Origin: Escherichia phage vB_EcoM_phAPEC6
DNA length: 64,000 nucleotides
Direction: 5' to 3' (one strand)
Sequence record: MK817115.1
The notes beneath the pieces were generated by a model. It ran no database searches and was not told the origin of the DNA. It worked only from the letters and a program-made list of their open reading frames with translations. The position numbers and the translations under genes are program-made. Below are positions 40,670 to 64,000 of this stretch, piece after piece; position 1 is the first letter of the stretch; each line of letters begins with the position of its first letter.

Positions 40670-40690
40670 CAAAAAGACCCATACGGGTCT
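40670..40690 (-). terminator. rho-independent terminator directly after 40691..41257
   Basis: AGACCC-ATAC-GGGTCT with flanking A-run and T-run. Confidence 0.55.
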
Positions 40691-44471: not shown

Positions 44472-44530
44472 TGTGTTATAACCCTTTACAATTAATATAA
44501 AGGGATTATATCACAAAAAATCGGTGGGTG

Positions 44531-46124: not shown

Positions 46125-46129
46125 TTGTT

Positions 46130-46732: not shown

Positions 46733-47283
46733 AATAGTTCCTTATACATATGATGTACTTTACAAATCTCATTATAGTATTTCATATCAATGTCATTTGT
46801 ATTAAAAACGGAAACAGACAATACTGCTAACTTATCAATTAAGTAATTATTATCGGCGTACTGTTTTAACTTATTGAACATATAGATGCATTTTATACTT
46901 AATTCATCATGCAACACACTGTTCTGAAAAATATTCTCTTCAGTATTAGGAGATAAGTAATCTTCAATTATATACGATAAACTACTATCGCAATCTTTAT
47001 AGATTGAAATTGATGGATGTAATGTGTCATACATTACACTAAACAGATCACCGTCATATGTGGATATTAAACTATTATTGGAAACAGTAGGATGATAATA
47101 TTTCAGTACTGAAAACTTTGAACAATCAGTGCAGTAAAAATGATCCATCCCTCGACGACTTTCGTATGAGAATAGTTTACTTGTATATTCAATCCCTTTG
47201 GTGCGACGGATTGTTTCATGCATTTCTGCACATTGCATTAAAATTACCATACGTTCAAACGCAAGATCTAAATCATCGTACAT
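46723..47283 (-). CDS. EE-FQ family paralogue
   Basis: EENIFQNSVLHD. Confidence 0.55.
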   Translation of the reverse strand: MYDDLDLAFERMVILMQCAEMHETIRRTKGIEYTSKLFSYESRRGMDHFYCTDCSKFSVLKYYHPTVSNNSLISTYDGDLFSVMYDTLHPSISIYKDCDSSLSYIIEDYLSPNTEENIFQNSVLHDELSIKCIYMFNKLKQYADNNYLIDKLAVLSVSVFNTNDIDMKYYNEICKVHHMYKELLCQ

Positions 47284-47464
47284 AACGGATATCCTTCTTC
47301 AACGAATTAATATATTCCAAAATAACTTGTTCCTGATATTGGGTTCCCAAGTACATCAGTACTTTCAACTCTTTGAATTCAGTACTATATGAGTCTGTTT
47401 GCATCATTCTAGTAGAATATATATTGAATAGTTTAGCAATATCATCTTGGTCTATTATTTTCAT
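47273..47464 (-). CDS. LGT-QE family small protein (dispersed copy)
   Basis: LMYLGTQYQEQVILEYINSL. Confidence 0.5.
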   Translation of the reverse strand: MKIIDQDDIAKLFNIYSTRMMQTDSYSTEFKELKVLMYLGTQYQEQVILEYINSLKKDIRYVR

Positions 47465-47660
47465 TAACCCTCTTCTGTATTAGTTCCTGTAAGTGCTGAA
47501 TATAACCCTTCATTGCAACATCCTGTTTGTTAGAGCCAACGAAGAACAAGAGCTTAAAGTCATGGTAATCCATTTTTGGTTTAGTAGTGAACCATATGTC
47601 CCACACTGCACTCACAGTTCTCATGTATTCAATTCGATTAAATGTTTTTGAATACTTCAT
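47442..47660 (-). CDS. LGT-QE family small protein (divergent)
   Basis: LFFVGSNKQDVAMKGYIQHL. Confidence 0.45.
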   Translation of the reverse strand: MKYSKTFNRIEYMRTVSAVWDIWFTTKPKMDYHDFKLLFFVGSNKQDVAMKGYIQHLQELIQKRVNENNRPR

Positions 47661-51064: not shown

Positions 51065-51065
51065 T

Positions 51066-51557
51066 TTAACCCCTGTTAATACCGTTATCTACAGTTTTCT
51101 TTACGTATTTGTAATCGAAATAGAAGTTCCCAGAACCAATACTTTTAAAGTACCACATAATTATAATAACATCAAGTACTTCATTATCGTATACAGTACT
51201 TTGTTGGAAGTAATACTCTTCACTATCCCACGGACCTTCCAGTACTTCACTCGGAATTATAATGTCATCGGAATCGCTATCAGTACTGTAGATGGTATCT
51301 GTATCATTAATATAGACCATGTACTCATTATGCATATTAATGAAGCATTCATAATCATTAGGGTCGGTATCCAGTACACACGTTTCTGTATCCAGTACGC
51401 ACGTTTCTGTATCTGAGCAGTCATTATAAAGGAGGTTATCCGGTACATAATATTGAGTACTTGTGTCTTTGAAAACACCGTAAACTGAACCTTCTTTTGC
51501 CATATTCATGTACTCATGAATCTTCTTTGCTTTTTCCAATGAACTCTGTAATGTCAT
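51066..51557 (-). CDS. EE-FQ family paralogue (recent tandem duplicate 5 of 5)
   Basis: MTLQSSLEKAKKIH ... EEYYFQQSTVYD; carries internal 7-aa duplication DTETCVL. Confidence 0.6.
   Translation of the reverse strand: MTLQSSLEKAKKIHEYMNMAKEGSVYGVFKDTSTQYYVPDNLLYNDCSDTETCVLDTETCVLDTDPNDYECFINMHNEYMVYINDTDTIYSTDSDSDDIIIPSEVLEGPWDSEEYYFQQSTVYDNEVLDVIIIMWYFKSIGSGNFYFDYKYVKKTVDNGINRG
51370..51411. repeat. 21-bp tandem direct repeat (2 units, 1 mismatch), in-frame within 51066..51557
   Basis: tccagtacacacgtttctgta / tccagtacgcacgtttctgta. Confidence 0.8.
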
Positions 51558-51566
51558 TTTATAATC

Positions 51567-51926
51567 TCATATATTGAAATAATAATTATTCGTTCTTGAT
51601 GGGGATGGATTAAATACGTTTTCTTTTTCAAATCTCTTCATTTCATTTTGCAAAGAAACCATTTCTTCAAATGTACAGGAGTACTTATTCTTATCAAACA
51701 CTAATGCAGCCTGAAATAGTTCACCATCGTCCAGTACTGTATAATCTATAAGACTCTCAGATTCATAGTCATAGTCGTCATGTGATACATGAATAAATTT
51801 AAAACAAGAATCTTTGTAATGCATATATAAACTCAACTCATGTTCCGAGTCGCCCTTAATAAGATTACAGCACAAGTCCCATCCTTTAGGTAACTTATAA
51901 TAGTACATAGAATAATCATATGTCAT
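51567..51926 (-). CDS. EE-FQ family paralogue (short subfamily)
   Basis: DDGELFQAALVFDKNKYSCTFEEM. Confidence 0.55.
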   Translation of the reverse strand: MTYDYSMYYYKLPKGWDLCCNLIKGDSEHELSLYMHYKDSCFKFIHVSHDDYDYESESLIDYTVLDDGELFQAALVFDKNKYSCTFEEMVSLQNEMKRFEKENVFNPSPSRTNNYYFNI

Positions 51927-52279
51927 TCTTGAATTCCTAAATTGAATTTGTATTCTTGATTAATACTTGCATTGGGTTTATGCAAAGCAGCATACTCTTT
52001 CATTTCATTTTGTATTGCAATAACTTCTTCAAATGTACACAAGTACTTCTTATCAAATACTAATGATTCTTGGAATAGTTCTGCGGTATCCATTAATGTA
52101 TAGTCCGGCATATCTTGGTGTGGATACTGTAATGAACTGTAATCAATGAATGTAAATTTACCCTGAGTGTAATGAATATACTCATTTGCACTGTGCATTA
52201 AATCACCTTTGTTTAAATTACAAAAGTACTGATAACTGTGCTTGAAAGTATGTACTGATATTAAAAAATCAAATTCCAT
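51923..52279 (-). CDS. EE-FQ family paralogue (short subfamily)
   Basis: DTAELFQESLVFDKKYLCTFEEV. Confidence 0.55.
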   Translation of the reverse strand: MEFDFLISVHTFKHSYQYFCNLNKGDLMHSANEYIHYTQGKFTFIDYSSLQYPHQDMPDYTLMDTAELFQESLVFDKKYLCTFEEVIAIQNEMKEYAALHKPNASINQEYKFNLGIQE

Positions 52280-52291
52280 CAGTACTCAACC
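52210..52291. repeat. 82-bp direct repeat, copy A (5' end of gene 51923..52279)
   Basis: Near-identical to 52729..52810 (2 mismatches by eye). Confidence 0.75.
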
Positions 52292-52650
52292 TCTACATAA
52301 ATAGATTCAGGAAACTTAGTCATATAATCTTCTGGATAGTTCTGCATTACTTTGATCATTTCTGCCTGTGTAGCACGGACGTATTCAATTGGTGCTCCTG
52401 GTAAATTCCAGACAGTACTTTCCTGAAAGAATTCCTCTTCTGACAGTACTGTCAGATTTACAAAATCATTACGGTAATTTTTTGAATCATCATATGTGAA
52501 GATTTTAAAAGACCCATTTTCATATAGTACAAGAACAAAATGGGAGAATTTTTGTAATGCACCACCAAGGCTTTCCACGACCGCATGATTCAGTGTACAG
52601 ATGACCTCTTTTTTCCTCATACCGAATTGAATTCTAATTTCTTTTTTCAT
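52279..52650 (-). CDS. EE-FQ family paralogue (short subfamily)
   Basis: SEEEFFQESTVWN. Confidence 0.55.
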   Translation of the reverse strand: MKKEIRIQFGMRKKEVICTLNHAVVESLGGALQKFSHFVLVLYENGSFKIFTYDDSKNYRNDFVNLTVLSEEEFFQESTVWNLPGAPIEYVRATQAEMIKVMQNYPEDYMTKFPESIYVEVEY

Positions 52651-52651
52651 A

Positions 52652-52808
52652 AAATCTCCTTCAGATTAGTACTGAATTTGTACAGAATATTAGAACTGTA
52701 TACAGCCTCTGTATCTGTATCCATAATCAAATCACCTTTGTTTAAATTACAAAAGTACTGATAACTGTGCTTAAAAGAATGTACTGATATTAAAAAATCA
52801 AATTCCAT
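52652..52808 (-). pseudogene. remnant ORF (52 aa): duplicated N-terminus of an EE-FQ short-subfamily gene
   Basis: Own translation MEFDFLISVHSFKHSYQYFCNLNKGDLIMDTDTEAVYSSNILYKFSTNLKEIL; first 27 aa almost identical to N-terminus of 51923..52279; overlaps neighbours at both ends. Confidence 0.5.
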
Positions 52809-52810
52809 CA
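52729..52810. repeat. 82-bp direct repeat, copy B
   Basis: aaatcacctttgtttaaattacaaaagtactgataactgtgctt...tcaaattccatca. Confidence 0.75.
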
Positions 52811-53185
52811 CTCTTCCCCTAGATTGAAATGATTACAAAAATCATCTTCACCAGTACTGCACCAGATATCTATACATTCCCTGTGAATACATTTAATTCT
52901 ACGCTGTAATTCAATCATCTCTTCTAATGTACAGATGTACTTCTTATCAAATACTAATGCCGCCTGAAACAGTGCAGCATCATCAAGTACTGTATAGTCC
53001 AACATCTCGGTTGCTTTACCCCTAAACCCAGTACTAAAATCCATCAAATAAAAGTCAGCATTCCAGTACTTTAAAATCTTGTCCCTAGCGTAGTTTAAAT
53101 CACCCTTGTATAAGTTAGAGTGCGTAACTAACTCACCAGTGTACATCCATGTCCTTGCACAAAATTCATTATATTTTATTTCCAT
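52808..53185 (-). CDS. EE-FQ family paralogue (short subfamily)
   Basis: DDAALFQAALVFDKKYICTLEEM; start set at MEIKYNEF (track start 53293 over-extended). Confidence 0.5.
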   Translation of the reverse strand: MEIKYNEFCARTWMYTGELVTHSNLYKGDLNYARDKILKYWNADFYLMDFSTGFRGKATEMLDYTVLDDAALFQAALVFDKKYICTLEEMIELQRRIKCIHRECIDIWCSTGEDDFCNHFNLGEE

Positions 53186-53381
53186 CTTAATCTCTACTAT
53201 AATTAATAAGGTAAACTCCAATATAAGGAGCACGTTGCGGGGGCGGGGTATTTTTTGTTTCAGGAAACATGAACTGTACTCTGAAAAACACAATATAAAA
53301 CTTTATATTAAACATATACCTTAGCATGTTTTTCAGCGGAAATTTTTTTGACCCCCTGCGGCCTGTCAAAACGAAACGTCT

Positions 53382-53606
53382 CTATTTATTCAGCCTAGAA
53401 ACCTTGATTTCTTCAATCCTTTTCATTGCACAAAGCCTTCGACTCGTCCTCTCGTATATATTCAATACTCGCTGTAATGCATTATCTGTATTATCTGCAA
53501 CTGCAATCTGAACCAAATATGTATCCTTCAAAATAGAATCCATCATGAATTCAAAACCTTTCACACTAAAGCAATATGCCACTTCCGGCTCTTCAAACGT
53601 AATCAT
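53382..53606 (-). CDS. hypothetical protein
   Basis: ORF track. Confidence 0.4.
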   Translation of the reverse strand: MITFEEPEVAYCFSVKGFEFMMDSILKDTYLVQIAVADNTDNALQRVLNIYERTSRRLCAMKRIEEIKVSRLNK

Positions 53607-53796
53607 AATTCCAATCCCCTATTCCCTCTAACCTTCTAAGATATCTTGCGTAAATTATTTCGAAATATCTGTGCAACGAAATTACGGATTGCTCATAATC
53701 ATCATTCCTGTACATTGTGCATGTCAGAAAATCATTTAACCCAAAATCTAAACTGCACTTGAACTTCTCCTTAGCAACATCTCTAAAATTATTCAT
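53593..53796 (-). CDS. hypothetical protein
   Basis: ORF track. Confidence 0.4.
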   Translation of the reverse strand: MNNFRDVAKEKFKCSLDFGLNDFLTCTMYRNDDYEQSVISLHRYFEIIYARYLRRLEGIGDWNYDYV

Positions 53797-53978
53797 AATA
53801 TGTCCTCTGTACAGCGTAGGTGTACTGTGAACTCAGCACCACTAATAGGTAATCTATATTGTAAGCACGATTTCCTCGTTGACTAGCACGGCTGGAATAA
53901 AGAATATTATCCACATATGTATTGAACTGATCTTCAAATAACTCTTTCATCAGCATTATACCATCACATAATCATACA

Positions 53979-54531
53979 TCATACATTAACAACTTTATCG
54001 ATGTAATCTTCTAACATATCAATATATCTGGTATTGGTTCTAACTAAAAGGTATGCAAATCCAGAGAACTCCTGTGTATAATGCTTTACAGCGTACATAC
54101 AACGAAGCTTATCATTGTCATACATTGTACTGTACTGAAACAAACTCTCGTCTGATAGCTCTAATAACGCTTGGGCTTCACTTCTCGTGAACTTCATAGG
54201 GTCATGTACTGCATCACAAAAACAAACCTGTGTCTCGCTATTGAAACCCTGTGATAGATATATACCTTCACACTCTGAACGCACCGATACTGCATTATAA
54301 CTATGTGTTGCCCCCATCATATCTGAACTCAAAACTAAAATCAACCCATTTTTATTTTTAATCAACAAATCTGACTTAAGGGATTTGATCTCCGTATGGG
54401 AAATATCACCAAATCTTCCTGGGACTTCAAACTTATCAACGTTGTATACAATCTTTTGTACTTGCTCTTTTAAACGCTTAATTGCACTTCTGTCTTTTTC
54501 TAATGTATCTAATAAACTCATTGAACTCATT
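53979..54531 (-). CDS. EE-FQ family paralogue
   Basis: DESLFQYSTMYD; start set at MSSMSLLDTLEK, matching the family N-terminus. Confidence 0.5.
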
Positions 54532-54540
54532 GTACTTTCC

Positions 54541-54882
54541 TTACATATTTGTACCGAACAAAACGGAACTGCGAACGTCATTGATCGACAATTCATGTAC
54601 ATATATATTTTGTCTGAACAAAGGAACTAATTGAACTAAACTTTGTTGCATAACAATATGCATATGTAAATTGTCATATGCCGTTTCGTATTGGAAACGT
54701 GCTGCTTCATCTTCTATGAAATTAGGAACTTGGACTGGATTTTCAAAATTTGTTCTTGAACTGAACTGCACATCATTATCCTGTACTTTAATACCATATG
54801 CATTATCATCATCATATACATCTAATTCAATTAAACTACCATCACTTTTTATGTTTACCACACAAACCGAAAATCGACTCAT
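54541..54882 (-). CDS. EE-FQ family paralogue
   Basis: EAARFQYETAYD. Confidence 0.5.
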   Translation of the reverse strand: MSRFSVCVVNIKSDGSLIELDVYDDDNAYGIKVQDNDVQFSSRTNFENPVQVPNFIEDEAARFQYETAYDNLHMHIVMQQSLVQLVPLFRQNIYVHELSINDVRSSVLFGTNM

Positions 54883-55394
54883 AAACCTATTTCCTCTAAA
54901 TCTTTGACAAATGTATCATAATCCGATAATGACAAAAATATGTCTGTACTGATGTTTTGACGTAATGTATTAAACAAATTATGTACCTGTAATAAATCAG
55001 GTGCATAAATCAGGGATTGCTGGAAATACGATTCTTCTGTATCTAATATATCCCTGCACTCAATTTCACGAACTCGTTGGTATATTGAATTTAATAATAC
55101 ATTTTCATCTTTGAGCATTGGAAGGTATCTGATGTACATGTGCTCCATCAACTCATCCTGGATTGAACCCCTGAACTGCAACACGTATTCAAAACACATC
55201 ACTACATCTTGTAGGTAATTGGCACTGTAATTATTGCTGTAAACAATCTTATGACTTCTGAACTCATCATCATTTCTGAACCAATCGTCACCCACTTTGG
55301 TGTACTTATGACTAAGCTTCCCATCCTCCAACGCTCGAATGAACTTCATAATGTTAATTGCAAAATCATATGAATGATGCTTGTGTTGATGCAT
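54879..55394 (-). CDS. EE-FQ family paralogue
   Basis: EESYFQQSLIYA. Confidence 0.55.
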   Translation of the reverse strand: MHQHKHHSYDFAINIMKFIRALEDGKLSHKYTKVGDDWFRNDDEFRSHKIVYSNNYSANYLQDVVMCFEYVLQFRGSIQDELMEHMYIRYLPMLKDENVLLNSIYQRVREIECRDILDTEESYFQQSLIYAPDLLQVHNLFNTLRQNISTDIFLSLSDYDTFVKDLEEIGL

Positions 55395-55402
55395 TTTTTA
55401 CC

Positions 55403-55597
55403 TCAATTCTGTCCGAAAAAATAACCAAAATGTTTAAAACAAGAAAGCATTACTATGTTCATCACTCTATCATCAAATTCATCTTGTGTTTCTGCACATA
55501 ATGTTTCACAGATATTCAAATGTAATAATTCAAGCTGGAAACTGTCGGTGAACCAATCAAACTTACGGTATTTTTGTTTAACATCAACTGTAAGCAT
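55403..55597 (-). CDS. small hypothetical protein
   Basis: ORF track. Confidence 0.4.
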   Translation of the reverse strand: MLTVDVKQKYRKFDWFTDSFQLELLHLNICETLCAETQDEFDDRVMNIVMLSCFKHFGYFFGQN

Positions 55598-55598
55598 A

Positions 55599-56222
55599 CT
55601 ATATATCCAACCCTTTTACAACATCTACGAAATGTTCAAACACTTCTTTTGAAAAATAACCACCTTCACAAAAAAGCATACTAAACGGTGGCAGCATGTC
55701 CGATAACTCTTTAGCTAAATTGATTTCTGCTCTTAACTCTTGAACATCAATGATATCATGTACTAACGATAATTGAAACATGAATGCATCTACATCTTCA
55801 TTCATTTCTGAATTGTAATATAACTCTTCAGGGAATTTGTCGGTTTCGTAATAATAAAAAACTTTATTGTTGAACACACCACTAATAGGAACATCATTTT
55901 CATCTTTCTTTGAAATGTTTGTTTCCCATGACTCTATATTATTAGGAACAAAAAAATCATAGGCTGATTTTGAACCCTGTACTGAATCCAACTTTATTCC
56001 ATAATATTCCGTATCCATGTATTTCTGCTGTAATGTAATACCACGTGTACTGACATTCACTTGGAATATATCATCTTTATCTGGAACACTAAATGGAATA
56101 CATAACACTGAATTCTCAGGGTATTTGGCAATGAATGCATCCAGCACTTTATTAAGCACCGGAATGGCAATTTTACTGTACTGCATCAAATCATACATTT
56201 TAATTCTGGTCATATCATTCAC
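55599..56222 (-). CDS. EE-FQ family paralogue
   Basis: DAFMFQLSLVHD. Confidence 0.55.
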   Translation of the reverse strand: MNDMTRIKMYDLMQYSKIAIPVLNKVLDAFIAKYPENSVLCIPFSVPDKDDIFQVNVSTRGITLQQKYMDTEYYGIKLDSVQGSKSAYDFFVPNNIESWETNISKKDENDVPISGVFNNKVFYYYETDKFPEELYYNSEMNEDVDAFMFQLSLVHDIIDVQELRAEINLAKELSDMLPPFSMLFCEGGYFSKEVFEHFVDVVKGLDI

Positions 56223-56742
56223 CTGTGTATGTTTTCACCCTTAGCGATTCAAAATCCCATACATCACTGATTGTACCATTGTGCCTGTAATCATAATATT
56301 CTACTAATACATTATACAATAACTTCAACGATACAAATTCATGATTCCACGGAGCTTTATTCTCATGAACACATTTGGTGATATAAGGTATAATATATAA
56401 ACTAAACAACACTAATGGTGAATGTATACATTGCATTTGAAAATATTCTTCTTCTTGCATACAATGCTCAGGAATAATCAATTCCGTATGTGACCCTAAG
56501 CTATACGAACCTGCTGTGTATTTTTTCGTATCACATGCGTACCATATTGTACTATCCGAAATAAATGGAATGATACCATTATTGTTTGCAATGTACATCA
56601 TATGGTAAGAGCGATTTGTCTTGTTAAATATCTCAATACTTTCGATATTACTACAAATCATGTATTCAATGCAATCAATAATCTTATCTTTAAATGCACC
56701 AATTTCATTGAATGTCATTGATTTCTGCACTTCACTGCTCAT
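56215..56742 (-). CDS. EE-FQ family paralogue
   Basis: EEEYFQMQCIHS. Confidence 0.55.
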   Translation of the reverse strand: MSSEVQKSMTFNEIGAFKDKIIDCIEYMICSNIESIEIFNKTNRSYHMMYIANNNGIIPFISDSTIWYACDTKKYTAGSYSLGSHTELIIPEHCMQEEEYFQMQCIHSPLVLFSLYIIPYITKCVHENKAPWNHEFVSLKLLYNVLVEYYDYRHNGTISDVWDFESLRVKTYTGE

Positions 56743-57281
56743 ATGTTCTCCTTAAAAAAATTCAAATACTCTTCATTGAAAGCATATGTATCATCTTTTT
56801 TGTTATGCACCACATAATCATAAAGAGCTATGAATGCAGGGATTATGATCTTACATGATTTATTATTGTATTTGTACTGCTCCAAATCAACGGTGTTCAA
56901 TTTAGCAATAAGCATAGCAGCAAAGATATCTTCATGGCGGTGTACTGTGCTGTACTGAAAATATTCATCCTCTCCAATATCGGGATGATATAACGGTATA
57001 ACCAAATTATTACGAATTGACATCTTATATTTTTGTAATGCAGCTAAATGTATGAACCACAATCTATCTTCATTGAAATATGGAAAAATAATTTTGTCTG
57101 TGCTAATAAAAATTTCTTCATTTCGATTATTTGTCACAAGAGGTGCATACATTTTAATTTTTGCAGATTTAATAATTAAATTAAAAATATAATGAATCTT
57201 ATGAACTGCACTTGATGCATCTTCGTATGTACTTGGGATTATGAAACTCACTATATGTTCTCCTTTAAAATGAATACACAT
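56739..57281 (-). CDS. EE-FQ family paralogue
   Basis: EDEYFQYSTVHR. Confidence 0.55.
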   Translation of the reverse strand: MCIHFKGEHIVSFIIPSTYEDASSAVHKIHYIFNLIIKSAKIKMYAPLVTNNRNEEIFISTDKIIFPYFNEDRLWFIHLAALQKYKMSIRNNLVIPLYHPDIGEDEYFQYSTVHRHEDIFAAMLIAKLNTVDLEQYKYNNKSCKIIIPAFIALYDYVVHNKKDDTYAFNEEYLNFFKENI

Positions 57282-57333
57282 GATAACAGCTTTGGTCTTC
57301 TATGTCAATACCAAAACGAAAAAAGCCCATATC

Positions 57334-57840
57334 TTACGATACAGGCGTTCTGGGCATGTTGATTTGAATTTCATTGTACAAATCATCAATATATAGACAT
57401 GAAAAAAATACACTATCTTGTACTATATTGTTGTGATAAAGCATTTTAAATACTACATAAAAAAATAAATCAATATCATCGTGGACTAAATTCTGCTGGA
57501 ACCACCACTCGTCTGTTAAATCTTGTGCATTAAAATCATCAGGAACTTCAATGAACGACATATCACAATCTTCTTTGTACTCAAACCACATGTCGTCATT
57601 CGGATAACGTTCATGCTTCTCTGGGTAACAATTGCTGGGATTAAATGTTAAAATATTAAACCCCGTAGAGCAACGTTCTTTATTTAAAAATGTATTATTC
57701 CATACCTGATATTTTTCACCAACATCAAGCTCTTCTGTTACTGATTTTATTGCACATAATGTACTGTATATTGTTTCTATCTTGTGAACATATTTAAATG
57801 CAGCATCTAAGCTGAACTCTAAATCATACATGTACTGCAT
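57334..57840 (-). CDS. EE-FQ family paralogue
   Basis: DEWWFQQNLVHD. Confidence 0.55.
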   Translation of the reverse strand: MQYMYDLEFSLDAAFKYVHKIETIYSTLCAIKSVTEELDVGEKYQVWNNTFLNKERCSTGFNILTFNPSNCYPEKHERYPNDDMWFEYKEDCDMSFIEVPDDFNAQDLTDEWWFQQNLVHDDIDLFFYVVFKMLYHNNIVQDSVFFSCLYIDDLYNEIQINMPRTPVS

Positions 57841-58160
57841 AAAATTACCTCAACTAAAGCAAGGACTGTATTGAATTCCACTATACTTGTAATTCCTTGA
57901 AGGTACATATACTTTGCTACTACATATTTCTGTACTAAATTATAATTATTAAATTCCTCAAAATTGTAATTTAGAACAAAATCTGTACTCAAAAATATCT
58001 TATGCATCTCTAATGCACTTTGATAATACGCGTACAACTCACTGATATCAATACTGGTTAAATTATATTGTTCATATCTATGATACGGGATGGCTTCAAT
58101 TTCAATACTATAAAACCATTCTCTTAACTTATTAATATCAAATGTATTATTCAGCTTCAT
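57819..58160 (-). CDS. hypothetical protein
   Basis: ORF track. Confidence 0.45.
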   Translation of the reverse strand: MKLNNTFDINKLREWFYSIEIEAIPYHRYEQYNLTSIDISELYAYYQSALEMHKIFLSTDFVLNYNFEEFNNYNLVQKYVVAKYMYLQGITSIVEFNTVLALVEVILCSTCMI

Positions 58161-58713
58161 AACTCAATACCTCCATTAAACACTCATACACACCATCAAT
58201 CGCATAAGCACAAAAATTGAAATTAATTTTGTGATTCTTGTGTAATGGACTATTGTGTACTGTACTCATTATGACATTATAAAATAACAAACGCACTGGT
58301 ACAAGCATTGAACCTTGGAAAAATTCTTCCTCTGATTTATATGTATTGTACTCTATTGTTTTGTTCGTTTCTTTATCATATGTTACCATTACTAATGGGG
58401 CATTTTTATTATACCATGCGTACTCTAAATCATTCTTTCCAATAACAGCACCAGGTGCGAAATCCAAAAGACCAATAACACTACGGGAATTTGGGGTATC
58501 AGGTGTATTGAATCGTTTATCAAAATGACTCGTGCACGCAATATATGTATTGTACTTCGATGGAATAATACCAATACATTTGTGGAAATGACGCTTGTGA
58601 TATTTCTGGGCATTATATAAGGCTGCAACAATACAAGCTAACTTTTGTCCCATAAGGATTGCATTAGCGTAGGTGTACTGAATTTCATTGCTGGTACGGT
58701 ACTTCGAGGTCAT
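58147..58713 (-). CDS. EE-FQ family paralogue
   Basis: EEEFFQGSMLVP. Confidence 0.55.
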   Translation of the reverse strand: MTSKYRTSNEIQYTYANAILMGQKLACIVAALYNAQKYHKRHFHKCIGIIPSKYNTYIACTSHFDKRFNTPDTPNSRSVIGLLDFAPGAVIGKNDLEYAWYNKNAPLVMVTYDKETNKTIEYNTYKSEEEFFQGSMLVPVRLLFYNVIMSTVHNSPLHKNHKINFNFCAYAIDGVYECLMEVLSYEAE

Positions 58714-58996
58714 AATATTTCCTTTGCCATATCATGGGCTTAAAATCAATAACAGCTTTCTGTATCTTTTTTAATAATAAGACATCATAACCACCCGTGT
58801 CAATCACTAATTGCTGTTGGAACAATTCTTCATCGGATAATGTATTGAAATCTACAAAATAATCTGTAACTATCGAATCATTTAAATGTGCCATGTACCA
58901 ACCTGAACTTCTTGAATAAATCAAATTCCACCCATCGTCATCATCTTCTAATTCAACATAAATCATATCTGGGGTATACATCATTTTATACTTCAT
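58685..58996 (-). CDS. EE-FQ family paralogue
   Basis: DEELFQQQLVID. Confidence 0.55.
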   Translation of the reverse strand: MKYKMMYTPDMIYVELEDDDDGWNLIYSRSSGWYMAHLNDSIVTDYFVDFNTLSDEELFQQQLVIDTGGYDVLLLKKIQKAVIDFKPMIWQRKYYDLEVPYQQ

Positions 58997-59534
58997 AACT
59001 ATATCCTTGCATTAATAAATCATAAACTACATGGACTAAATTTAATTGAATATAAAATTTTAAACCTTTAATTAATGGATTCAAATGCATTGTACTGAAT
59101 AACATTAGATACATCATCTCATGCGGTTTTGTGATTAATGATTTTTGAAATACTTCAGCTTCATCATAAGGGTCTATGAACTGAAATTTGTCTTCATCAT
59201 AATTTGTATTGGAATGCTGATATATAAAATAATCATCATTGGTATTGTACCACAAATATCCTTCGAATCCTGTACTAACATCTTTGGTCAATGGGGATGC
59301 TGATACTGGATTTGAACTGATTAATGCACCTACATCAACAATCCCCGTTGTATCATATTCGATTTCAACATCAATATCAATGTATTTCCTTGCGATATCC
59401 GCGTTTATGGACAAATATAAACTACCACCTGTCCTCTGACTCAGGATTCCATCTATATGCGATATAGGATGGTTGTTATTGAGGATAAGCATTATTGTAC
59501 TTATCTTGTGTGCTAATAACTCTATCTCATTCAT
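58986..59534 (-). CDS. EE-FQ family paralogue
   Basis: EAEVFQKSLITK. Confidence 0.55.
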   Translation of the reverse strand: MNEIELLAHKISTIMLILNNNHPISHIDGILSQRTGGSLYLSINADIARKYIDIDVEIEYDTTGIVDVGALISSNPVSASPLTKDVSTGFEGYLWYNTNDDYFIYQHSNTNYDEDKFQFIDPYDEAEVFQKSLITKPHEMMYLMLFSTMHLNPLIKGLKFYIQLNLVHVVYDLLMQGYSYEV

Positions 59535-59734
59535 AATTTACCTATCGATGGATACCTAGGATTTGTAGGATGTAAAATCCTGTCCTGTACTGAAAGGTGC
59601 TCAAATGTAATTAAACTCAAATAATAATCGTAATTATCAATACCACCCTTCAAATGTATATTGTAATACATCTTAATACTATCTAATAATGAATCCTGTA
59701 ATGCATTTAATGTTATCGTATTAATCTTTTGCAT
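59531..59734 (-). CDS. small hypothetical protein
   Basis: ORF track. Confidence 0.4.
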   Translation of the reverse strand: MQKINTITLNALQDSLLDSIKMYYNIHLKGGIDNYDYYLSLITFEHLSVQDRILHPTNPRYPSIGKL

Positions 59735-59882
59735 TAATGTTCTTCTCTTAAAAATCGTTTGATAGCATAATCTAAATAAAATTCATAACACATGCTATCT
59801 CTGTTCTTTATCCATATTTTGTAATCGGATTTTATATTACGCAACAAATAATTTGTATTAATTGTGTAATAATCTAATCGCC

Positions 59883-60275
59883 CTAATCTTTCCATTTAAT
59901 AGGATACTCCTTTCCTTGTACTATATATGACAAAATCCATCCGTAATGAATAGGATGATTTTTGTCTGAATCAGGAATAAAATATAAAGCTGTACTTGGA
60001 TTATGACTGAATAAATCTTTATTGTCAAATGTAAAATGTGATAATATAATTTTCCTTGCACTTGGACGAATAACATTCTTAACACTGAACTCTGAACCTT
60101 TGTATTTCTCCGATAATTCAAATAATGCATCTGTAATTAAATCACTGATCTCTTGGATTACAAAATTCTGATAAAATGCATTAATCTCTTTTAACTCTGT
60201 ATACAATTCACTTCTGGTATTCAAAAGAAATATTACTTTTTTAAGATCCTGAACTATTTCTGGATTCATATTCAT
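59883..60275 (-). CDS. hypothetical protein
   Basis: ORF track. Confidence 0.45.
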   Translation of the reverse strand: MNMNPEIVQDLKKVIFLLNTRSELYTELKEINAFYQNFVIQEISDLITDALFELSEKYKGSEFSVKNVIRPSARKIILSHFTFDNKDLFSHNPSTALYFIPDSDKNHPIHYGWILSYIVQGKEYPIKWKD

Positions 60276-60507
60276 TTATCTCATTCTGTATCTTAAGCAT
60301 CAAAATTTGCATATTAATTTTTTGTACAAGGTGCTTGATAAATTTCTGTGCCATTTCTTCTTGTTCTTTTGTACCAAGATAAAATAACAGATTAAATTCT
60401 GATAATCGCAAAGAAAAATCTTCATCACCACCCTTTAAACAAAAATCCCTGTACTTTGTAGCGTACAAATATTGGTTTACCTTTTTATAATACCCTGTGT
60501 TTTGCAT
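60241..60507 (-). CDS. LGT-QE family small protein (dispersed copy)
   Basis: LLFYLGTKEQEEMAQKFIKHL. Confidence 0.5.
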   Translation of the reverse strand: MQNTGYYKKVNQYLYATKYRDFCLKGGDEDFSLRLSEFNLLFYLGTKEQEEMAQKFIKHLVQKINMQILMLKIQNEINEYESRNSSGS

Positions 60508-60695
60508 ACTATCTCCGTTCGCAACGAATTTATATAATAATGAACAAATTGTTCTTGTGAACGTGTTCCAAGAAAAATAAACATATCAAACTCTGTTGTT
60601 TTTAAATTCAATGCATCTTTTGTAAAATTCCTGTTGAATTCCCTGTACTTTTGGGTCTTCCATTCTTGATTAATTGTCTTGTATATCGATTTCAA
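60477..60695 (-). CDS. LGT-QE family small protein (dispersed copy)
   Basis: FIFLGTRSQEQFVHYYINSL. Confidence 0.5.
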   Translation of the reverse strand: MKSIYKTINQEWKTQKYREFNRNFTKDALNLKTTEFDMFIFLGTRSQEQFVHYYINSLRTEIVCKTQGIIKR

Positions 60696-60996
60696 TGATT
60701 CTCCCTGATGTACCTTGTATTAGCTTATCATACATATCGAGCATCACTTTTTGAATACTAATTAGTACTGGCATCGTGCAAATATCAATGTCGTATACTA
60801 AGCTGTACTGGAATAATTCATCTTCCTGCATTTGTACTAAATTAGGTAAAGGATAATTGTCTGCCTCTTCATCCTGGTACTTGAAATGCATAACACCATC
60901 CTTTTTGTACAAAAGAATGTCAATATCACCTAACTCATCAGCATAACCAAAAATACATATACTCGATGTTTTTGCTATATTAAATTTCATCTCCAC
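60670..60996 (-). CDS. EE-FQ family paralogue
   Basis: EDELFQYSLVYD. Confidence 0.55.
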   Translation of the reverse strand: MEMKFNIAKTSSICIFGYADELGDIDILLYKKDGVMHFKYQDEEADNYPLPNLVQMQEDELFQYSLVYDIDICTMPVLISIQKVMLDMYDKLIQGTSGRIIEIDIQDN

Positions 60997-61232
60997 CTCT
61001 CTCCGTCAGCACAAGAGTACTGGTACGTTGTCGTTAGGGTAGGGACCATGTTTGTAATGGGCATGTTGTTAACAATAACCGTAACAGGCATAAGAATCGT
61101 CTCTACTCTACTCTGTCCTGTCCTTGTGCAATTCATCTTCTGCATTTCATCTGAATCCATGAAATACAATACAAATGGTGCAATCCCAAGAACAATACAC
61201 AAGACGATAAGGAAATTTAAAAAATTTAACAT
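60987..61232 (-). CDS. small membrane protein
   Basis: N-terminal TM segment MLNFLNFLIVLCIVLGIAPFVLYF. Confidence 0.45.
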   Translation of the reverse strand: MLNFLNFLIVLCIVLGIAPFVLYFMDSDEMQKMNCTRTGQSRVETILMPVTVIVNNMPITNMVPTLTTTYQYSCADGERWR

Positions 61233-61291
61233 AATTTTTACCCTATGATTAACGTTAGTGTACTATATCAGTAATGAAAAGTACTGTCAAG

Positions 61292-61696
61292 CTAGTATTG
61301 CACTGTTCTAATGAAAGTACCTTTACTCATGGATTTAAGCTTATGAACCTCTTCCTGCATACCCTTAATTAACCCTAAAGGTATAGGTAAATCATGTACT
61401 AAGCTGTACTGAAAGTATTCTTCTTCAGATAAAGTACTAACATCTGGAACGCCAATTTTAGTTATATAATCTTGATGTGTTGACCAATAAATTATATCTT
61501 CAGTACTATTGTACTCCCCATATACTGAACAATATTGATGAATATCTTTCCTGTACCCTTGAGCAATAAAGAACTTATCTAATGCATTACCAGCATTAAT
61601 AGAATTTACTTCGATTGTCACAGTACTTGAGCTTGTATAACTCTTAATATTATCAGTACTCTTAATACTCAACGATGTGTTCTTCATAATCACCAT
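61292..61696 (-). CDS. EE-FQ family paralogue
   Basis: EEEYFQYSLVHD. Confidence 0.55.
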   Translation of the reverse strand: MVIMKNTSLSIKSTDNIKSYTSSSTVTIEVNSINAGNALDKFFIAQGYRKDIHQYCSVYGEYNSTEDIIYWSTHQDYITKIGVPDVSTLSEEEYFQYSLVHDLPIPLGLIKGMQEEVHKLKSMSKGTFIRTVQY

Positions 61697-62006
61697 TAGG
61701 CTCCTGTTTAGATTCTTTCATTAGTACTATCATCTTATGTACTAATGGCATAGGAAACTCTAAATCCCATACTAATGATTCCTGAAAGTATTCCTCTGGT
61801 GATAAAGTACTTAAATCTTTAATATCAACGTGCTTGTATATTTTATTTTCGTAATTAACAAATGATATATATAAATCACTAACATAAGAATCATAGGTAA
61901 TTGTGAATGGTTTACCCTTGTAATCCATTACATCTCTACATAGACTACTTTTGATATATGTATGTTCAAATGATTTATATACCTTGAGTTGTATATTAGT
62001 TTTCAT
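61662..62006 (-). CDS. EE-FQ family paralogue
   Basis: PEEYFQESLVWD. Confidence 0.55.
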   Translation of the reverse strand: MKTNIQLKVYKSFEHTYIKSSLCRDVMDYKGKPFTITYDSYVSDLYISFVNYENKIYKHVDIKDLSTLSPEEYFQESLVWDLEFPMPLVHKMIVLMKESKQEPNGDYEEHIVEY

Positions 62007-62256
62007 ATTTCTCTTTATTAGCTTGTTTGGTTTTATAGTGAATTAAATCTATTAATGTAATCAAGTACAACGTCAAATAGTACTCTTGTTGATCTGTACC
62101 TAATGATACAAAGAACTTGTGCTCATAGATTAAAACCTGTTTCTCTTCAAATGGACATTTAATCCTCTGTATAGGCTTAAGTAAATGATAGTACTTATTA
62201 AATCTATGATACATTTCTAGTTCTGTCAGTACTTTCATATTAAACACATACTCCAT
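61996..62256 (-). CDS. LGT-QE family small protein (array copy)
   Basis: FFVSLGTDQQEYYLTLYL. Confidence 0.5.
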   Translation of the reverse strand: MEYVFNMKVLTELEMYHRFNKYYHLLKPIQRIKCPFEEKQVLIYEHKFFVSLGTDQQEYYLTLYLITLIDLIHYKTKQANKEKYEN

Positions 62257-62461
62257 TAGCAGTAGCAGTACTTAAAGCACTCAAATACCTCTGTACGGCT
62301 TGCTCTTGATGATCTGTACCTAAAAGTATATACACCCATAATTCATTGTAGTGTACATCTTCTGTATAAGGGTTGTTGTAACTTTTTGATAATATAGCAT
62401 CAAATTCAGATGCATAATCCCTTGTGAACTTAAACATATCTTGTTGTGTTATGATTCTCAT
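62240..62461 (-). CDS. LGT-QE family small protein (array copy)
   Basis: YILLGTDHQEQAVQRYLSAL. Confidence 0.55.
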   Translation of the reverse strand: MRIITQQDMFKFTRDYASEFDAILSKSYNNPYTEDVHYNELWVYILLGTDHQEQAVQRYLSALSTATANGVCV

Positions 62462-62673
62462 AACTTTTCCTGTATAAGCTTCTTAAGTATTTCTATGTGT
62501 GAATTAACAGTTCTTTCTTGATGCTGTGTTCCTAAGAGTGTCAGTACTATCATCTCTGAACGCAAAAGATTTTTTTCAAGTTCACTTATATCAGTTCTTG
62601 AATCAAGTGCCATATATTTGTGATTATTCTTCCTGAATAGTGCCAAGTACTCTTGATTTGATATTTCCTTCAT
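62458..62673 (-). CDS. LGT-QE family small protein (array copy)
   Basis: LTLLGTQHQERTVNSHIEIL. Confidence 0.55.
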   Translation of the reverse strand: MKEISNQEYLALFRKNNHKYMALDSRTDISELEKNLLRSEMIVLTLLGTQHQERTVNSHIEILKKLIQEKL

Positions 62674-62900
62674 AGTTTATTCCTGATGCCATTTAAAAGT
62701 GCTCTAATATGCTCATTGACAAATCGCTCTTGGGAATCTGTTCCTAGAGTGAGTAGCAATCTTAAATCTGAACTTTTGATGTGATATTCTAAATCATTCT
62801 TTGATTCTTGCATCAGTTTCTTAAAGGATGAGAAGTTTGCAGCCATTAGTTCAATGTATTCTGCTGTTCCTAGGGGTTTGTGTGTGTGCTGTCTGTGCAT
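62670..62900 (-). CDS. LGT-QE family small protein (array copy)
   Basis: LLTLGTDSQERFVNEHIRAL. Confidence 0.55.
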   Translation of the reverse strand: MHRQHTHKPLGTAEYIELMAANFSSFKKLMQESKNDLEYHIKSSDLRLLLTLGTDSQERFVNEHIRALLNGIRNKL

Positions 62901-63112
62901 TTTAATTGTATTACCCTTTTGAGTGTATTAATGTAATTATACACATTGGCTTCTTGATAGTTTGTTCCTAGAGTAGCTTGAACGTAGATTTCATTTAACT
63001 TAATAATTTTATCAGAATCTGGAAGTTTTGATGTGTTAATGGCAAATAACTTCGAAAACAGTCCATTTATGATTGTTAGGTATTCTACTTCGGTAATGAT
63101 TCGCATTTGCAT
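62870..63112 (-). CDS. LGT-QE family small protein (array copy)
   Basis: VQATLGTNYQEANVYNYINTL. Confidence 0.55.
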   Translation of the reverse strand: MQMRIITEVEYLTIINGLFSKLFAINTSKLPDSDKIIKLNEIYVQATLGTNYQEANVYNYINTLKRVIQLKCTDSTHTNP

Positions 63113-63324
63113 TGGATAAACCTTTTTAGTTCATTGATGTAATCATTAATATTGCATTCTTGATAGTTAGTCCCTAGTGTAGCTTGAACATAGATTTCAC
63201 TTACTAGAATACTTATTTCATCATCTGGTAATTTCATGCTTTTTGTTATAAACAGCTTTAGAATTAAACTACTTAATAGTTGGTTGTATTCTGTGGGTGA
63301 AATGATTTTCATTTGCATTTGCAT
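63085..63324 (-). CDS. LGT-QE family small protein (array copy)
   Basis: VQATLGTNYQECNINDYINEL. Confidence 0.55.
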   Translation of the reverse strand: MQMQMKIISPTEYNQLLSSLILKLFITKSMKLPDDEISILVSEIYVQATLGTNYQECNINDYINELKRFIQCKCESLPK

Positions 63325-63530
63325 TTTCTCAGTACTGATTCTTTAAGTTCATTAATGTAGCACTCTACATATTCTTCTTGTAGGTTTGTTCCGATATGTA
63401 ACAGTACTCTTAAATCTGCTCTCAGTACTTCTTTATCATCTTCATCTATATCAGACAGTGTTATGTTTAAGAATTTACTTGAACTCTCTATAAGTAATAT
63501 TACTGAATCACCTTTGCTTAAAATTTTCAT
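63309..63530 (-). CDS. LGT-QE family small protein (array copy)
   Basis: LLHIGTNLQEEYVECYINEL. Confidence 0.55.
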   Translation of the reverse strand: MKILSKGDSVILLIESSSKFLNITLSDIDEDDKEVLRADLRVLLHIGTNLQEEYVECYINELKESVLRKCKCK

Positions 63531-63738
63531 AATCTCTTTTTGCTTTCCTCGCCAAAAGGTACATATACGATTCTTCGTATTGTGCTTGGTAGTTTGTGTT
63601 TAAGAGTCGAAACAACTTCTGTTCTGCTAGAACGAGTTGCTTATCTTCATAACAACGATAGCGTATCAACTTTTTGTATTCGATGTTGATTACATCCATT
63701 ACTATAAGCCCATGTTCATCATCTGTCAAGTGTTTCAT
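63508..63738 (-). CDS. LGT-QE family small protein (array copy, divergent)
   Basis: FRLLNTNYQAQYEESYMYLL. Confidence 0.5.
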   Translation of the reverse strand: MKHLTDDEHGLIVMDVINIEYKKLIRYRCYEDKQLVLAEQKLFRLLNTNYQAQYEESYMYLLARKAKRDYENFKQR

Positions 63739-63977
63739 GCATTTTTTCTTTTTCTTATATGTTTAGTTAAAAGGTATATTAGTTTTCTATTGTATTCTTC
63801 CTGATAGTTTGTTCCTAATAGTGCAAGAAGTTTTGCTTCAACTAAAGCTAATTGACGTTCTTCAAATGTGTGTTCCAGTATGTACTTGGGGTTTGATTTT
63901 TTAGCGTAAGCACTATTAGTCTTCATTACAATCTTATGATATTCATTAGCAGTTAGGATTTTTAAATACTTGATCAT
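63735..63977 (-). CDS. LGT-QE family small protein (array copy)
   Basis: LALLGTNYQEEYNRKLIYLL. Confidence 0.55.
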   Translation of the reverse strand: MIKYLKILTANEYHKIVMKTNSAYAKKSNPKYILEHTFEERQLALVEAKLLALLGTNYQEEYNRKLIYLLTKHIRKRKNA

Positions 63978-64000
63978 GTATCTTTTCCTTTATAGAGAAT

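What the first reader, a model, noticed from the sequence alone, without database searches (positions are those of the whole stretch)
61996..63977. Tandem array of about 9 small 'LGT-x-x-QE' proteins, plus four dispersed copies
Nine consecutive 63-88 aa genes share the core h-x-LGT-[DNQ]-x-Q-E-x-x-V-x-x-[YH]-I-x-x-L, each overlapping the next by a few nucleotides. Further copies sit as pairs at 47273..47660 and 60241..60695 inside the EE-FQ array. Two adjacent copies (62870..63112 and 63085..63324) are nearly identical around the motif (VQATLGTNYQE), which points to recent duplication. The array continues to the window edge and may extend beyond it.
Basis: seen in the sequence. Interest (0 to 1): 0.75.

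Follow-up and report, generated by a model that had tools for sequence, protein, structure and literature searches.

The report
Jumbo-phage array of small helical paralogues
The window holds the tail end of a roughly 29-gene tandem array of tiny four-helix proteins that giant E. coli phages carry just inside their terminal repeat; the genes are real and under selection, they are probably switched on early in infection, and their function is untested.

Summary
Window 61996-63977 carries nine complete, overlapping minus-strand genes for 71-86 aa proteins of one family (phrog_4148, function unknown). A tenth copy is cut by the window edge. Four more lie at 47273-47660 and 60241-60695.

The window is an Asteriusvirus jumbo coliphage (PBECO4/121Q-like). 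In relatives about 95% identical in DNA the array has 27-29 members (23 in 121Q), so the window shows only its promoter-distal third.

In relatives the array starts about 100 bp inside the inner edge of the mapped 21-kb left terminal repeat, behind a conserved sigma70-type promoter. It has no convincing internal terminator. Its proteins are absent from the published virion proteome.

AlphaFold2 gives a very confident (pLDDT 95) four-helix fold with no informative structural neighbour. Only the G-T-x-x-Q turn and a hydrophobic ladder are conserved; the rest is hypervariable.

Orthologues are under purifying selection (dN/dS 0.34-0.51). The family occurs only in RaK2-like jumbo phages: at least 31-32 copies in the parts of Asteriusvirus genomes examined, about 13 in Klebsiella Alcyoneusvirus, and 11-19 on uncultured contigs.

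"Recent duplication" is not supported (dS 0.9).

The most likely role is an early, diversified repertoire of small host-binding proteins; this is inferred, not shown. A 2017 paper mentioned such an array in 121Q in one sentence.

The parts
63946..64000 (-). 3' end of a tenth tandem member, cut by the window edge (orthologue of JP4 array gene 20 of 29)
   Evidence: It translates to FSIKEKIHDQVFKNPNC*, matching the C-terminus of JP4 L001:12941-13192.
63735..63977 (-). Family member, 80 aa (array position 21 of 29 by JP4 numbering)
   Evidence: phrog_4148 E 9e-11; family HMM E 2e-20; collinear orthologues in relatives.
63701..63729 (-). Internal sigma70-like promoter match, TTGACA-17-TATAGT (11 of 12), inside the array
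   Evidence: Pattern scan. The same match is present at the equivalent place in fEgEco12, L002 25535-25563. This is a pattern match only; function is not shown.
63508..63738 (-). Family member, 76 aa, degenerate motif (LNT-NY-QA); position 22
   Evidence: phrog_4148 E 5e-6; HMM E 2e-18.
63309..63530 (-). Family member, 73 aa; position 23; the protein used for structure prediction
   Evidence: phrog_4148 E 6e-23; AlphaFold2 pLDDT 95.3, pTM 0.80.
63085..63324 (-). Family member, 79 aa; position 24; one of the closest paralogue pair
   Evidence: phrog_4148 E 1e-17; 56% identical to 62870-63112; dS 0.90 between the two.
62870..63112 (-). Family member, 80 aa; position 25
   Evidence: phrog_4148 E 1e-18.
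62670..62900 (-). Family member, 76 aa; position 26
   Evidence: phrog_4148 E 1e-13. It has the best-conserved counterpart in Turkey5, at 78% identity.
62458..62673 (-). Family member, 71 aa; position 27
   Evidence: phrog_4148 E 3e-20.
62240..62461 (-). Family member, 73 aa; position 28; the only copy with dN/dS above 1 against three relatives
   Evidence: phrog_4148 E 2e-21; dN/dS 1.1-3.0, based on small counts.
61996..62256 (-). Last gene of the tandem array (position 29); the true start is probably the ATG at 62238 (80 aa)
   Evidence: phrog_4148 E 5e-22, with the alignment starting at residue 7. There is no ribosome-binding site at 62256 but a GGAG before 62238.
60477..60695 (-). Dispersed member, 72 aa, TTG start with a strong ribosome-binding site
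   Evidence: phrog_4148 E 7e-9; Shine-Dalgarno pairing -8.2 kcal/mol.
60241..60507 (-). Dispersed member, 88 aa, divergent
   Evidence: phrog_4148 E 2e-3; family HMM E 8e-16.
47442..47660 (-). Dispersed member, 72 aa, degenerate motif (VGS-NK-QD)
   Evidence: phrog_4148 E 5e-4; family HMM E 2e-18.
47273..47464 (-). Dispersed member, 63 aa
   Evidence: phrog_4148 E 4e-17.

Best explanation
SHOWN:
- The region is the promoter-distal third of a roughly 29-gene, same-strand, overlapping (operon-like) tandem array. It encodes paralogous 63-88 aa proteins of family phrog_4148 in an Asteriusvirus jumbo coliphage.
- In relatives the array begins about 100 bp inside the inner boundary of the 21-kb left direct terminal repeat, directly behind a conserved sigma70-type promoter and a GGAG ribosome-binding site.
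- The proteins are predicted to share one compact four-helix fold. Its only conserved features are a hydrophobic core ladder and the turn 'h-L-G-T-x-x-Q-E' that joins helix 3 to helix 4 and bridges to the N-terminus. All other positions are hypervariable.
- Orthologues are kept collinear and under purifying selection. Copy number drifts between species.
- The proteins are not found in virions.

INFERRED:
- The array is transcribed by host RNA polymerase as one long early message and translated by coupling.
- Its products are a diversified repertoire built on one minimal scaffold. Each paralogue would use its own variable surface to bind a different host (or competitor) protein, for host takeover or neutralising defences. 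Array content would then contribute to which strains the phage can exploit.
- The LGT-x-x-QE motif is read as a fold determinant (a glycine helix stop followed by a Thr-x-x-Gln/Glu helix cap), not as an active site.
For: Identity and extent:
- The window is about 95% identical to slurp01, JP4 and PBECO4.
- Tandem member counts are 29 in JP4 and PBECO4, 28 in fEgEco12, 27 in ph0011 and 23 in 121Q.
- A tenth copy is cut by the window edge.

Position:
- The fEgEco12 terminal repeat of 20,993 bp was mapped by PhageTerm and restriction digests (PMC13070987).
- The first array gene starts at 21,091, and no family member lies inside the repeat.
- In Klebsiella phage Muenster (repeat 1-20,030) the first two genes after the repeat are also members.

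Promoter:
- TTGACT, 16 nt, TATTAT or TAAAAT, followed by GGAG, is conserved in fEgEco12, 121Q, ph0011 and the divergent Turkey5; JP4 has TTGATT at the -35 position.
- The terminal-repeat genes next door have perfect 12/12 sigma70 promoters.
- The only terminator-like match inside the window's array is weak, and the count is at shuffle expectation.
- The CBB paper predicts RpoD-like promoters clustered in the homologous short-ORF region and calls these genes suspected early host-takeover genes (PMC5259590).

Real genes:
- Pooled dN/dS is 0.34-0.51, against 0.33-0.42 for neighbouring genes.
- Ribosome-binding sites are enriched, p 3e-6.

Not structural:
- The phAPEC6 virion proteome of 62 proteins has nothing between gp347 and gp549, while an array member is named gp481c. 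It has no 7.5-10.5 kDa entry, although a 4.7-kDa protein was detected.

Scaffold with a variable surface:
- The AlphaFold2 model has pLDDT 95.3.
- Paralogues in BFVD share the fold, with TM 0.71-0.94 for the top five family hits.
- Across 155 sequences G47 is 94% conserved, T48 93%, Q51 98% and L62 93%. Hydrophobic positions average 2.1 bits of entropy and the others 3.1.
- pI ranges from 4.8 to 9.9.

Lineage-specific expansion and turnover:
- The exhaustive profile search finds only 92 clusters among 1.84 billion representatives.
- Muenster has about 13 copies. Uncultured contigs have 11-19.
- Per-gene orthologue identity is 44-100% within the genus, and mostly 30-55% to Turkey5 and Muenster.
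Against: - No expression, binding or phenotype data exist for any member, so timing and function are inferred from position and promoter patterns only.
- The promoter lies outside the window and is known only from relatives.
- Promoter-like matches in this AT-rich DNA are not more frequent than in shuffles.
- There is no family-wide signal of positive selection, which an arms-race repertoire might show. Only one gene has dN/dS above 1, on small counts.
- Structure and profile searches give no link to any known anti-defence, takeover or binding family.
- Tight translational coupling of about 29 genes would equally suit subunits that act together.
Confidence: 0.4

Rival explanations
1. The paralogues work together rather than separately. 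They would be co-expressed subunits of a hetero-oligomeric intracellular assembly, or a set of small nucleic-acid-binding or regulatory proteins. This is how the ~35-copy zinc-ribbon expansion of Bacillus phage G has been interpreted.
For: - The array looks like a single operon with 4-31 nt overlaps, which implies coupled, roughly equimolar translation.
- The helical scaffold is identical in all copies.
- Several copies have basic C-terminal tails and pI above 9.
- Iyer et al. propose transcription-factor or structural DNA-binding roles for the phage G expansion (PMC7824862).
Against: - pI spans 4.8-9.9, with several acidic members.
- There is no helix-turn-helix or other DNA-binding fold match.
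- Copy number varies from 23 to 29 among viable close relatives, and membership turns over almost completely in Turkey5 and Muenster. That is hard to reconcile with a fixed-stoichiometry complex.
Confidence: 0.2
2. The array is mostly evolutionary ballast. Tandem duplicates would have filled a genome that had to grow after the capsid enlarged (the 'ratchet' idea of Hua et al. 2017), with little or no present function.
For: [quoted passage not shown] The phAPEC6 paper repeats it.
- Copy number is variable.
- No known function or homologue exists.
Against: - Orthologues are under purifying selection (dN/dS 0.34-0.51).
- Reading frames and ribosome-binding sites are intact in all 13 copies.
- Paralogues have diverged to saturation (dS about 0.9), yet they keep the fold-defining residues across Asteriusvirus, Alcyoneusvirus and uncultured lineages with 25-35% GC.
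- Gene order is collinear across species.
Confidence: 0.1
3. They are a bank of polymorphic internal proteins, packaged in the head and injected with the DNA, like the T4 IP loci. The conserved N-terminus (MK-h-h-S/T-x-x-E-Y/F) would act as a capsid-targeting and cleavage signal.
For: - The N-terminal consensus is conserved across 155 members: M1, L4 at 67%, E8 at 64% and Y9 at 58%.
- From memory, it resembles the T4 capsid-targeting sequence MKTYQEFIAE.
- RaK2-like phages have a T4-like prohead protease (one search lists gp227c).
- The loci are polymorphic.
Against: - No member was detected among the 62 virion proteins of phAPEC6, although a 4.7-kDa protein was.
- In the AlphaFold2 model the N-terminus is part of the fold: residue 2 bridges to residue 48 and helix 1 starts at residue 6.
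- The promoter upstream of the array is of the early sigma70 type, not the late type.
Confidence: 0.05

Closest known systems
phrog_4148 (PHROGs v4, 'unknown function')
   Same: All 13 window proteins match this profile, as do members from K64-1 and uncultured contigs. It is the same family.
   Different: The PHROG entry carries no function, structure or genomic-context information.
The '>30 very similar genes in tandem' noted in phage 121Q by Hua et al. 2017 (mBio, PMC5646251)
   Same: 121Q is a close relative of the window's phage. The paper interprets its array as tandem duplication.
   Different: It is a single sentence with no coordinates, family definition, position, structure or selection analysis. 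121Q has 23 tandem and 25 regional members of this family, so the sentence could refer to this family or to the neighbouring larger paralogue families.
Lineage-specific expansion of ~35 zinc-ribbon genes in Bacillus phage G (Iyer et al. 2021, PMC7824862)
   Same: A jumbo phage carrying dozens of copies of one very small domain, with function unknown.
   Different: The fold is unrelated: a zinc ribbon there, an all-helical protein without metal ligands here. The phage lineage is also unrelated.
Multigene families at the genome ends of large eukaryotic DNA viruses (African swine fever virus MGF110/360/505; poxvirus terminal host-range families). This comparison is from established knowledge and was not tested here.
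   Same: Tandem paralogue arrays lie next to terminal repeats. Copy number differs between isolates, individual paralogues are retained under selection, and the role is host interaction rather than virion structure.
   Different: Those are eukaryotic viruses with unrelated folds, and their roles in immune evasion are shown experimentally. Nothing is shown here.
Host-takeover modules at phage genome ends (SPO1 gp37-60 in the terminal redundancy; T5 pre-early genes; Twort-like 'Tre' genes). This comparison is from established knowledge.
   Same: Clusters of very small genes at the end of a genome with long direct terminal repeats, carrying host-type promoters. The terminal-repeat genes beside this array fit that pattern.
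   Different: Those modules consist of unrelated genes, each with its own promoter, and lie inside the repeat. This array consists of paralogues apparently under one promoter, and lies just outside the repeat.

Membership tests
phrog_4148 | Significant match to the family profile over most of its length | tested here: met
   13 of 13 copies match. Ten have E 6e-23 to 5e-6. The other three have 4e-17, 5e-4 and 2e-3, the last two covering only the C-terminal half.
Tandem paralogue array (lineage-specific expansion) | Adjacent, same-strand genes with significant mutual similarity; copy number differs between related genomes | tested here: met
   There are 23-29 tandem copies in six Asteriusvirus genomes, about 20 in Turkey5 and about 13 dispersed in Muenster.
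Early host-takeover module of a terminal-repeat phage (SPO1/T5 type) | Located at the genome end, next to or in the direct terminal repeat | tested here: met
   The array starts 98 bp after the mapped repeat edge in fEgEco12. The same holds in Muenster. This is seen in relatives, not in the window itself.
Early host-takeover module of a terminal-repeat phage (SPO1/T5 type) | Host sigma70-type promoter(s) upstream | tested here: met
   TTGACT-16-TATTAT/TAAAAT is conserved upstream of the first array gene across the genus; JP4 has TTGATT at -35. This is a sequence pattern only.
Early host-takeover module of a terminal-repeat phage (SPO1/T5 type) | Transcribed in the first minutes of infection; products shut off or redirect host functions | not testable with these tools
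   No transcriptome or functional study of Asteriusvirus or Alcyoneusvirus was found.
T4-type internal (injected) proteins | Present in the mature virion | tested here: not met
   No member is among the 62 virion proteins of phAPEC6 (PMC7247149 Table 1). This rests on the literature, not on my own experiment.
T4-type internal (injected) proteins | N-terminal capsid-targeting sequence removed by the prohead protease | tested here: inconclusive
   The N-terminus is conserved, but it is predicted to be part of the fold. Cleavage cannot be tested here.
Any Pfam, NCBIfam or PADLOC family, or any solved structure | Significant sequence or fold match | tested here: not met
   - Pfam: nothing above the gathering threshold.
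- NCBIfam and PADLOC: nothing.
- PDB profile search: best E 0.035.
- Foldseek against PDB: best E 3.8.
Helix-turn-helix or other small DNA-binding proteins | Recognisable DNA-binding fold or uniformly basic charge | tested here: not met
   There is no such fold neighbour. pI is 4.8-9.9.

The most novel reading that the evidence does not exclude
The array is a genome-encoded library built on a single minimal four-helix scaffold. Each of the roughly 30 paralogues would carry a different binding surface and neutralise a different host defence protein or allelic variant. It would be a phage counterpart of the terminal multigene immune-evasion families of large eukaryotic DNA viruses. The set of paralogues a given Asteriusvirus carries would then help determine which E. 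coli strains it can infect.
Probability: 0.25. Interest if true: 0.8.

Novelty: new member of a known kind. Interest (0 to 1): 0.45.

Why it matters
More than 80% of the genes of RaK2-like jumbo phages have no known function, and these phages are being proposed for therapy against E. coli and Klebsiella. This one family accounts for at least 31-32 genes in the parts of each Asteriusvirus genome examined, roughly 5% of the gene count.

The family has a confidently predicted fold with no known relative. It also occupies a fixed position, as the first transcription unit after the terminal repeat. If it proves to be an early host-interaction repertoire, it would offer three things:
- A compact natural scaffold that tolerates change at most surface positions.
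- A handle on how a jumbo phage that builds no nucleus takes over the cell.
- A candidate determinant of host range.

If it proves dispensable, that would support the 'genome filler' view of how jumbo genomes grow. Either outcome is testable with one deletion and one RNA-seq time course.

Tried and rejected
Sequence and structure searches that gave nothing informative:
- Pfam, NCBIfam and PADLOC scans.
- A profile search of PDB sequences; the best hit was prefoldin at E 0.035, which is noise.
- Foldseek against PDB returned nothing.
- BFVD returned only family members.
- The afdb50 library was not available.

Other leads that went nowhere:
- The word-indexed protein search returned only orthologues of the query copies. 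The exhaustive search was needed to see the divergent members.
- The C-terminal 200 aa of the phage UB fusion protein (P0276) has no Pfam match, only a very weak PHROG hit, and no counterpart in any locus held at that point, so it offered no 'Rosetta stone'.
- tblastn of the divergent members P0242 and P0270 found no cultured phage.
- Phage CMSTMSU is full of frameshifts (40 fragmentary hits) and was excluded from the copy counts.
- The hypothesis that 121Q's single gene at the 62870/63085 position is a clean unequal-crossover hybrid could not be confirmed. It is a patchwork of both paralogues.
- Literature searches for transcriptomes or functional work on these genera found nothing.
- Rfam found no RNA family in 59000-64000, and TRF found no DNA-level tandem repeat with the gene period.
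Full report
**What is in the window.** Between 61996 and 63977 the minus strand carries nine complete ORFs of 71-86 codons. Each overlaps the next by 4 to 31 nt. Two further pairs lie at 60241-60695 and 47273-47660.

All share the pattern MK-h-h-S/T-x-x-E-Y ... E-h-x-h-h-x-h-L-G-T-N/D-x-Q-E-x-x-V-x-x-Y-I-x-x-L-x-x-x-I-x-x-K.

Pairwise identity is only 23-60%, but most pairs are significant. The best pair is 56% identical with E 9e-24. A profile built by others from other phages, phrog_4148, hits all 13. A family HMM finds exactly these 13 among 904 six-frame ORFs, with the next best at E 0.076.

Nine of the 13 starts have a good Shine-Dalgarno sequence, against 14% of background ATGs (p 3e-6). 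The rest sit at ATGA-type overlaps.

Two small corrections apply. The 61996 gene most likely starts at 62238. The last 54 nt of the window encode the C-terminus of a tenth tandem copy.

No Rfam family and no DNA-level tandem repeat is present. The repetition is visible only at the protein level.

**Whose genome, and how large the array is.** The region is about 95% identical to Escherichia phages slurp01, JP4 and PBECO4, which belong to Asteriusvirus. These are ~350-kb jumbo myoviruses of the RaK2-like group.

In JP4 the small genes continue past the equivalent of the window edge. Twenty-nine consecutive genes all carry the motif. Counts in other genomes are 29 in PBECO4, 28 in fEgEco12, 27 in ph0011, 23 in 121Q and about 20 in the divergent Turkey5.

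The window's nine genes are numbers 21-29 of 29, the promoter-distal end. With dispersed copies, the parts of each genome I examined hold 31-32 members.

**Position and signals.** For fEgEco12 the 20,993-bp direct terminal repeats were mapped by PhageTerm and confirmed by restriction digests (PMC13070987).

Inside the repeat, small unrelated genes are individually spaced. Several have perfect 12/12 sigma70 promoters. No family member lies in the repeat.

The first array gene starts at 21,091, 98 bp past the repeat edge. It is preceded by TTGACT-16-TATTAT and GGAG. This promoter-plus-RBS block is conserved in 121Q, ph0011 and Turkey5; JP4 has TTGATT at the -35 position.

The only terminator-like match in the window's part of the array is weak and no more than chance gives. 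One strong internal promoter-like match (63729-63701) is conserved in fEgEco12.

In Klebsiella phage Muenster (repeat 1-20,030) the first two genes after the repeat are again family members.

For the related phage CBB, RpoD-like promoters were predicted to cluster in the equivalent short-ORF region, which the authors suspect holds early host-takeover genes (PMC5259590).

Early transcription by host RNA polymerase is therefore a reasonable inference, but it is not shown. I found no transcriptome for these genera.

**The protein.** AlphaFold2 on a 76-sequence family alignment gives a very confident model (pLDDT 95.3, pTM 0.80). It has helices at residues 6-15, 17-25, 30-44 and 51-71, with a one-residue bridge between residue 2 and residue 48, the T of LGT.

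Predicted structures of other family members in BFVD superpose on it. The top five family hits have TM 0.71-0.94 and nothing else in BFVD is significant.

Across 155 diverse members the near-invariant positions are G47 (94%), T48 (93%), Q51 (98%) and L62 (93%). An acidic residue at position 39 and a ladder of hydrophobic positions are also conserved. Almost every other position carries 3-4 bits of entropy. pI ranges from 4.8 to 9.9.

I read the motif as a structural turn. Glycine ends helix 3, and Thr-x-x-Gln/Glu caps helix 4 and ties in the N-terminus. This reading is an inference from the secondary-structure string, because I had no coordinates.

**Evolution.** Orthologues between the window and four relatives give pooled dN/dS of 0.34-0.51, the same as neighbouring genes at 0.33-0.42. 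These are functional genes under moderate constraint, without a family-wide signal of positive selection. One gene (62240-62461) has dN/dS above 1 against three relatives, but on few substitutions.

Within Asteriusvirus the array is collinear, with 1:1 reciprocal best hits. Per-gene identity swings from 44 to 100%, and 121Q lacks about six members. Against Turkey5 and Muenster most best hits are only 30-55% identical and not collinear.

The closest paralogues are always neighbours (49-57% identity), as tandem duplication predicts. They are nevertheless old. The 62870/63085 pair has 64.5% DNA identity and dS 0.90, and even the 14 identical residues around the motif have dS 0.64. That is more than the orthologue dS to the most distant Asteriusvirus compared (0.42). 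Both copies also have their own orthologues in other species. 'Recent duplication' is therefore rejected.

**Distribution.** An exhaustive profile search of 1.84 billion representative proteins finds 92 clusters. All are 52-96 aa except one 269-aa fusion protein in phage UB.

Members occur in Klebsiella phages K64-1, RaK2 and Muenster. They also occur on uncultured contigs of 25-35% GC, with 11-19 clustered copies each.

The family is thus confined to RaK2-like jumbo phages, is always multi-copy, and is most expanded in Asteriusvirus.

**What it is not.** The phAPEC6 virion proteome lists 62 proteins. None lies between gp347 and gp549, whereas an array member is named gp481c. None is in the 7.5-10.5 kDa range, although a 4.7-kDa protein was detected. 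The proteins are therefore not detectable virion components, which weakens the idea of a T4-like bank of injected internal proteins.

**Interpretation.** Shown: the region is a large, old, selected, operon-like array of one novel small helical fold, placed as the first unit after the terminal repeat.

Inferred, at about 40% confidence: it is expressed early, and it acts as a diversified set of small binding proteins for host takeover or counter-defence.

The rivals are as follows:
- Subunits or regulators that act together (20%).
- Largely functionless duplicates filling an enlarged genome, the idea of Hua et al. 2017 (10%). Purifying selection and deep conservation argue against it.
- Injected internal proteins (5%).

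**Prior knowledge and novelty.** All members are annotated 'hypothetical protein' in more than 30 GenBank records. The family is catalogued as phrog_4148. [quoted passage not shown]

As far as the searched literature shows, the following are not described: the position at the terminal-repeat boundary, the conserved promoter, the confident orphan fold, the selection analysis, and the distribution across the RaK2-like clade.

I rate it as a new, uncharacterised member of a known kind, namely lineage-specific multigene families of large viruses. Interest is moderate.

Noticed in passing
L002 (fEgEco12) 20981-21005; equivalents in L001, L003, L004, L005, L006 and L007; beyond the window edge: A GC-rich 25-mer, GGGCGGGTAACCTTAGCGACTTCGA, straddles the reported inner edge of the left terminal repeat (20,993). 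It is conserved with 0-1 mismatch in all seven Asteriusvirus loci in otherwise AT-rich DNA. It is a candidate repeat-boundary or terminase recognition site.
   Followed up: partly
window 61996-64000, and JP4 L001 11000-17000: The array has its own strand composition. AT skew is -0.15 to -0.23 and GC skew is mostly near 0 on the plus strand, against -0.02 to -0.08 and -0.12 to -0.21 in the flanking genes on the same strand. This probably reflects amino-acid composition.
   Followed up: partly
window 62240-62461 (-): This one array gene has dN/dS of 3.0, 1.6 and 1.1 against JP4, ph0011 and fEgEco12, while all its neighbours are at 0.1-0.5. The counts are small, and significance was not tested.
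   Followed up: no
Protein P0276 (Escherichia phage UB, 269 aa): This is a natural fusion of an N-terminal LGT-family domain to an unknown ~200-aa C-terminal domain. The C-terminal part has no match in the loci held at that point. Muenster also has a 116-residue ORF made of a member plus an extension.
   Followed up: partly
Database hits: Many family proteins are labelled 'Escherichia coli', with longest contigs of 343-360 kb. Whole Asteriusvirus genomes therefore sit as separate contigs in E. coli isolate assemblies, through either a carrier state or contamination.
   Followed up: no
window 44000-62000 and 35600-42300; L011 10243-20246; L012 10779-16745: Downstream of the small-protein array lie further long runs of paralogous genes: the EE-FQ family of ~100-200 aa, and a series of ~190-aa ORFs. 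Uncultured relatives with 25-29% GC show a similar order, with clusters of small members and then runs of ~160-200 aa genes. The layout of the whole left arm seems conserved. All neighbours tested are PHROGs of unknown function.
   Followed up: partly
window 61233-61291 (-): One of the few real intergenic gaps in this stretch holds a strong promoter-like match, TTGACA-17-TATAGT with an extended-10 TG. It lies upstream of the 81-aa gene at 60987-61232 (phrog_8826), whose N-terminal ~25 residues are strongly hydrophobic in its sequence.
   Followed up: no
L003 (121Q), member 19 of the array, at the position of window 62870-63324: 121Q has one gene where the window has two. Its sequence alternates between states of the two paralogues (N-terminus like 63085, middle like 62870, 'DINDYIN' like 63085, end like 62870). 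This suggests gene conversion or collapse by recombination.
   Followed up: partly
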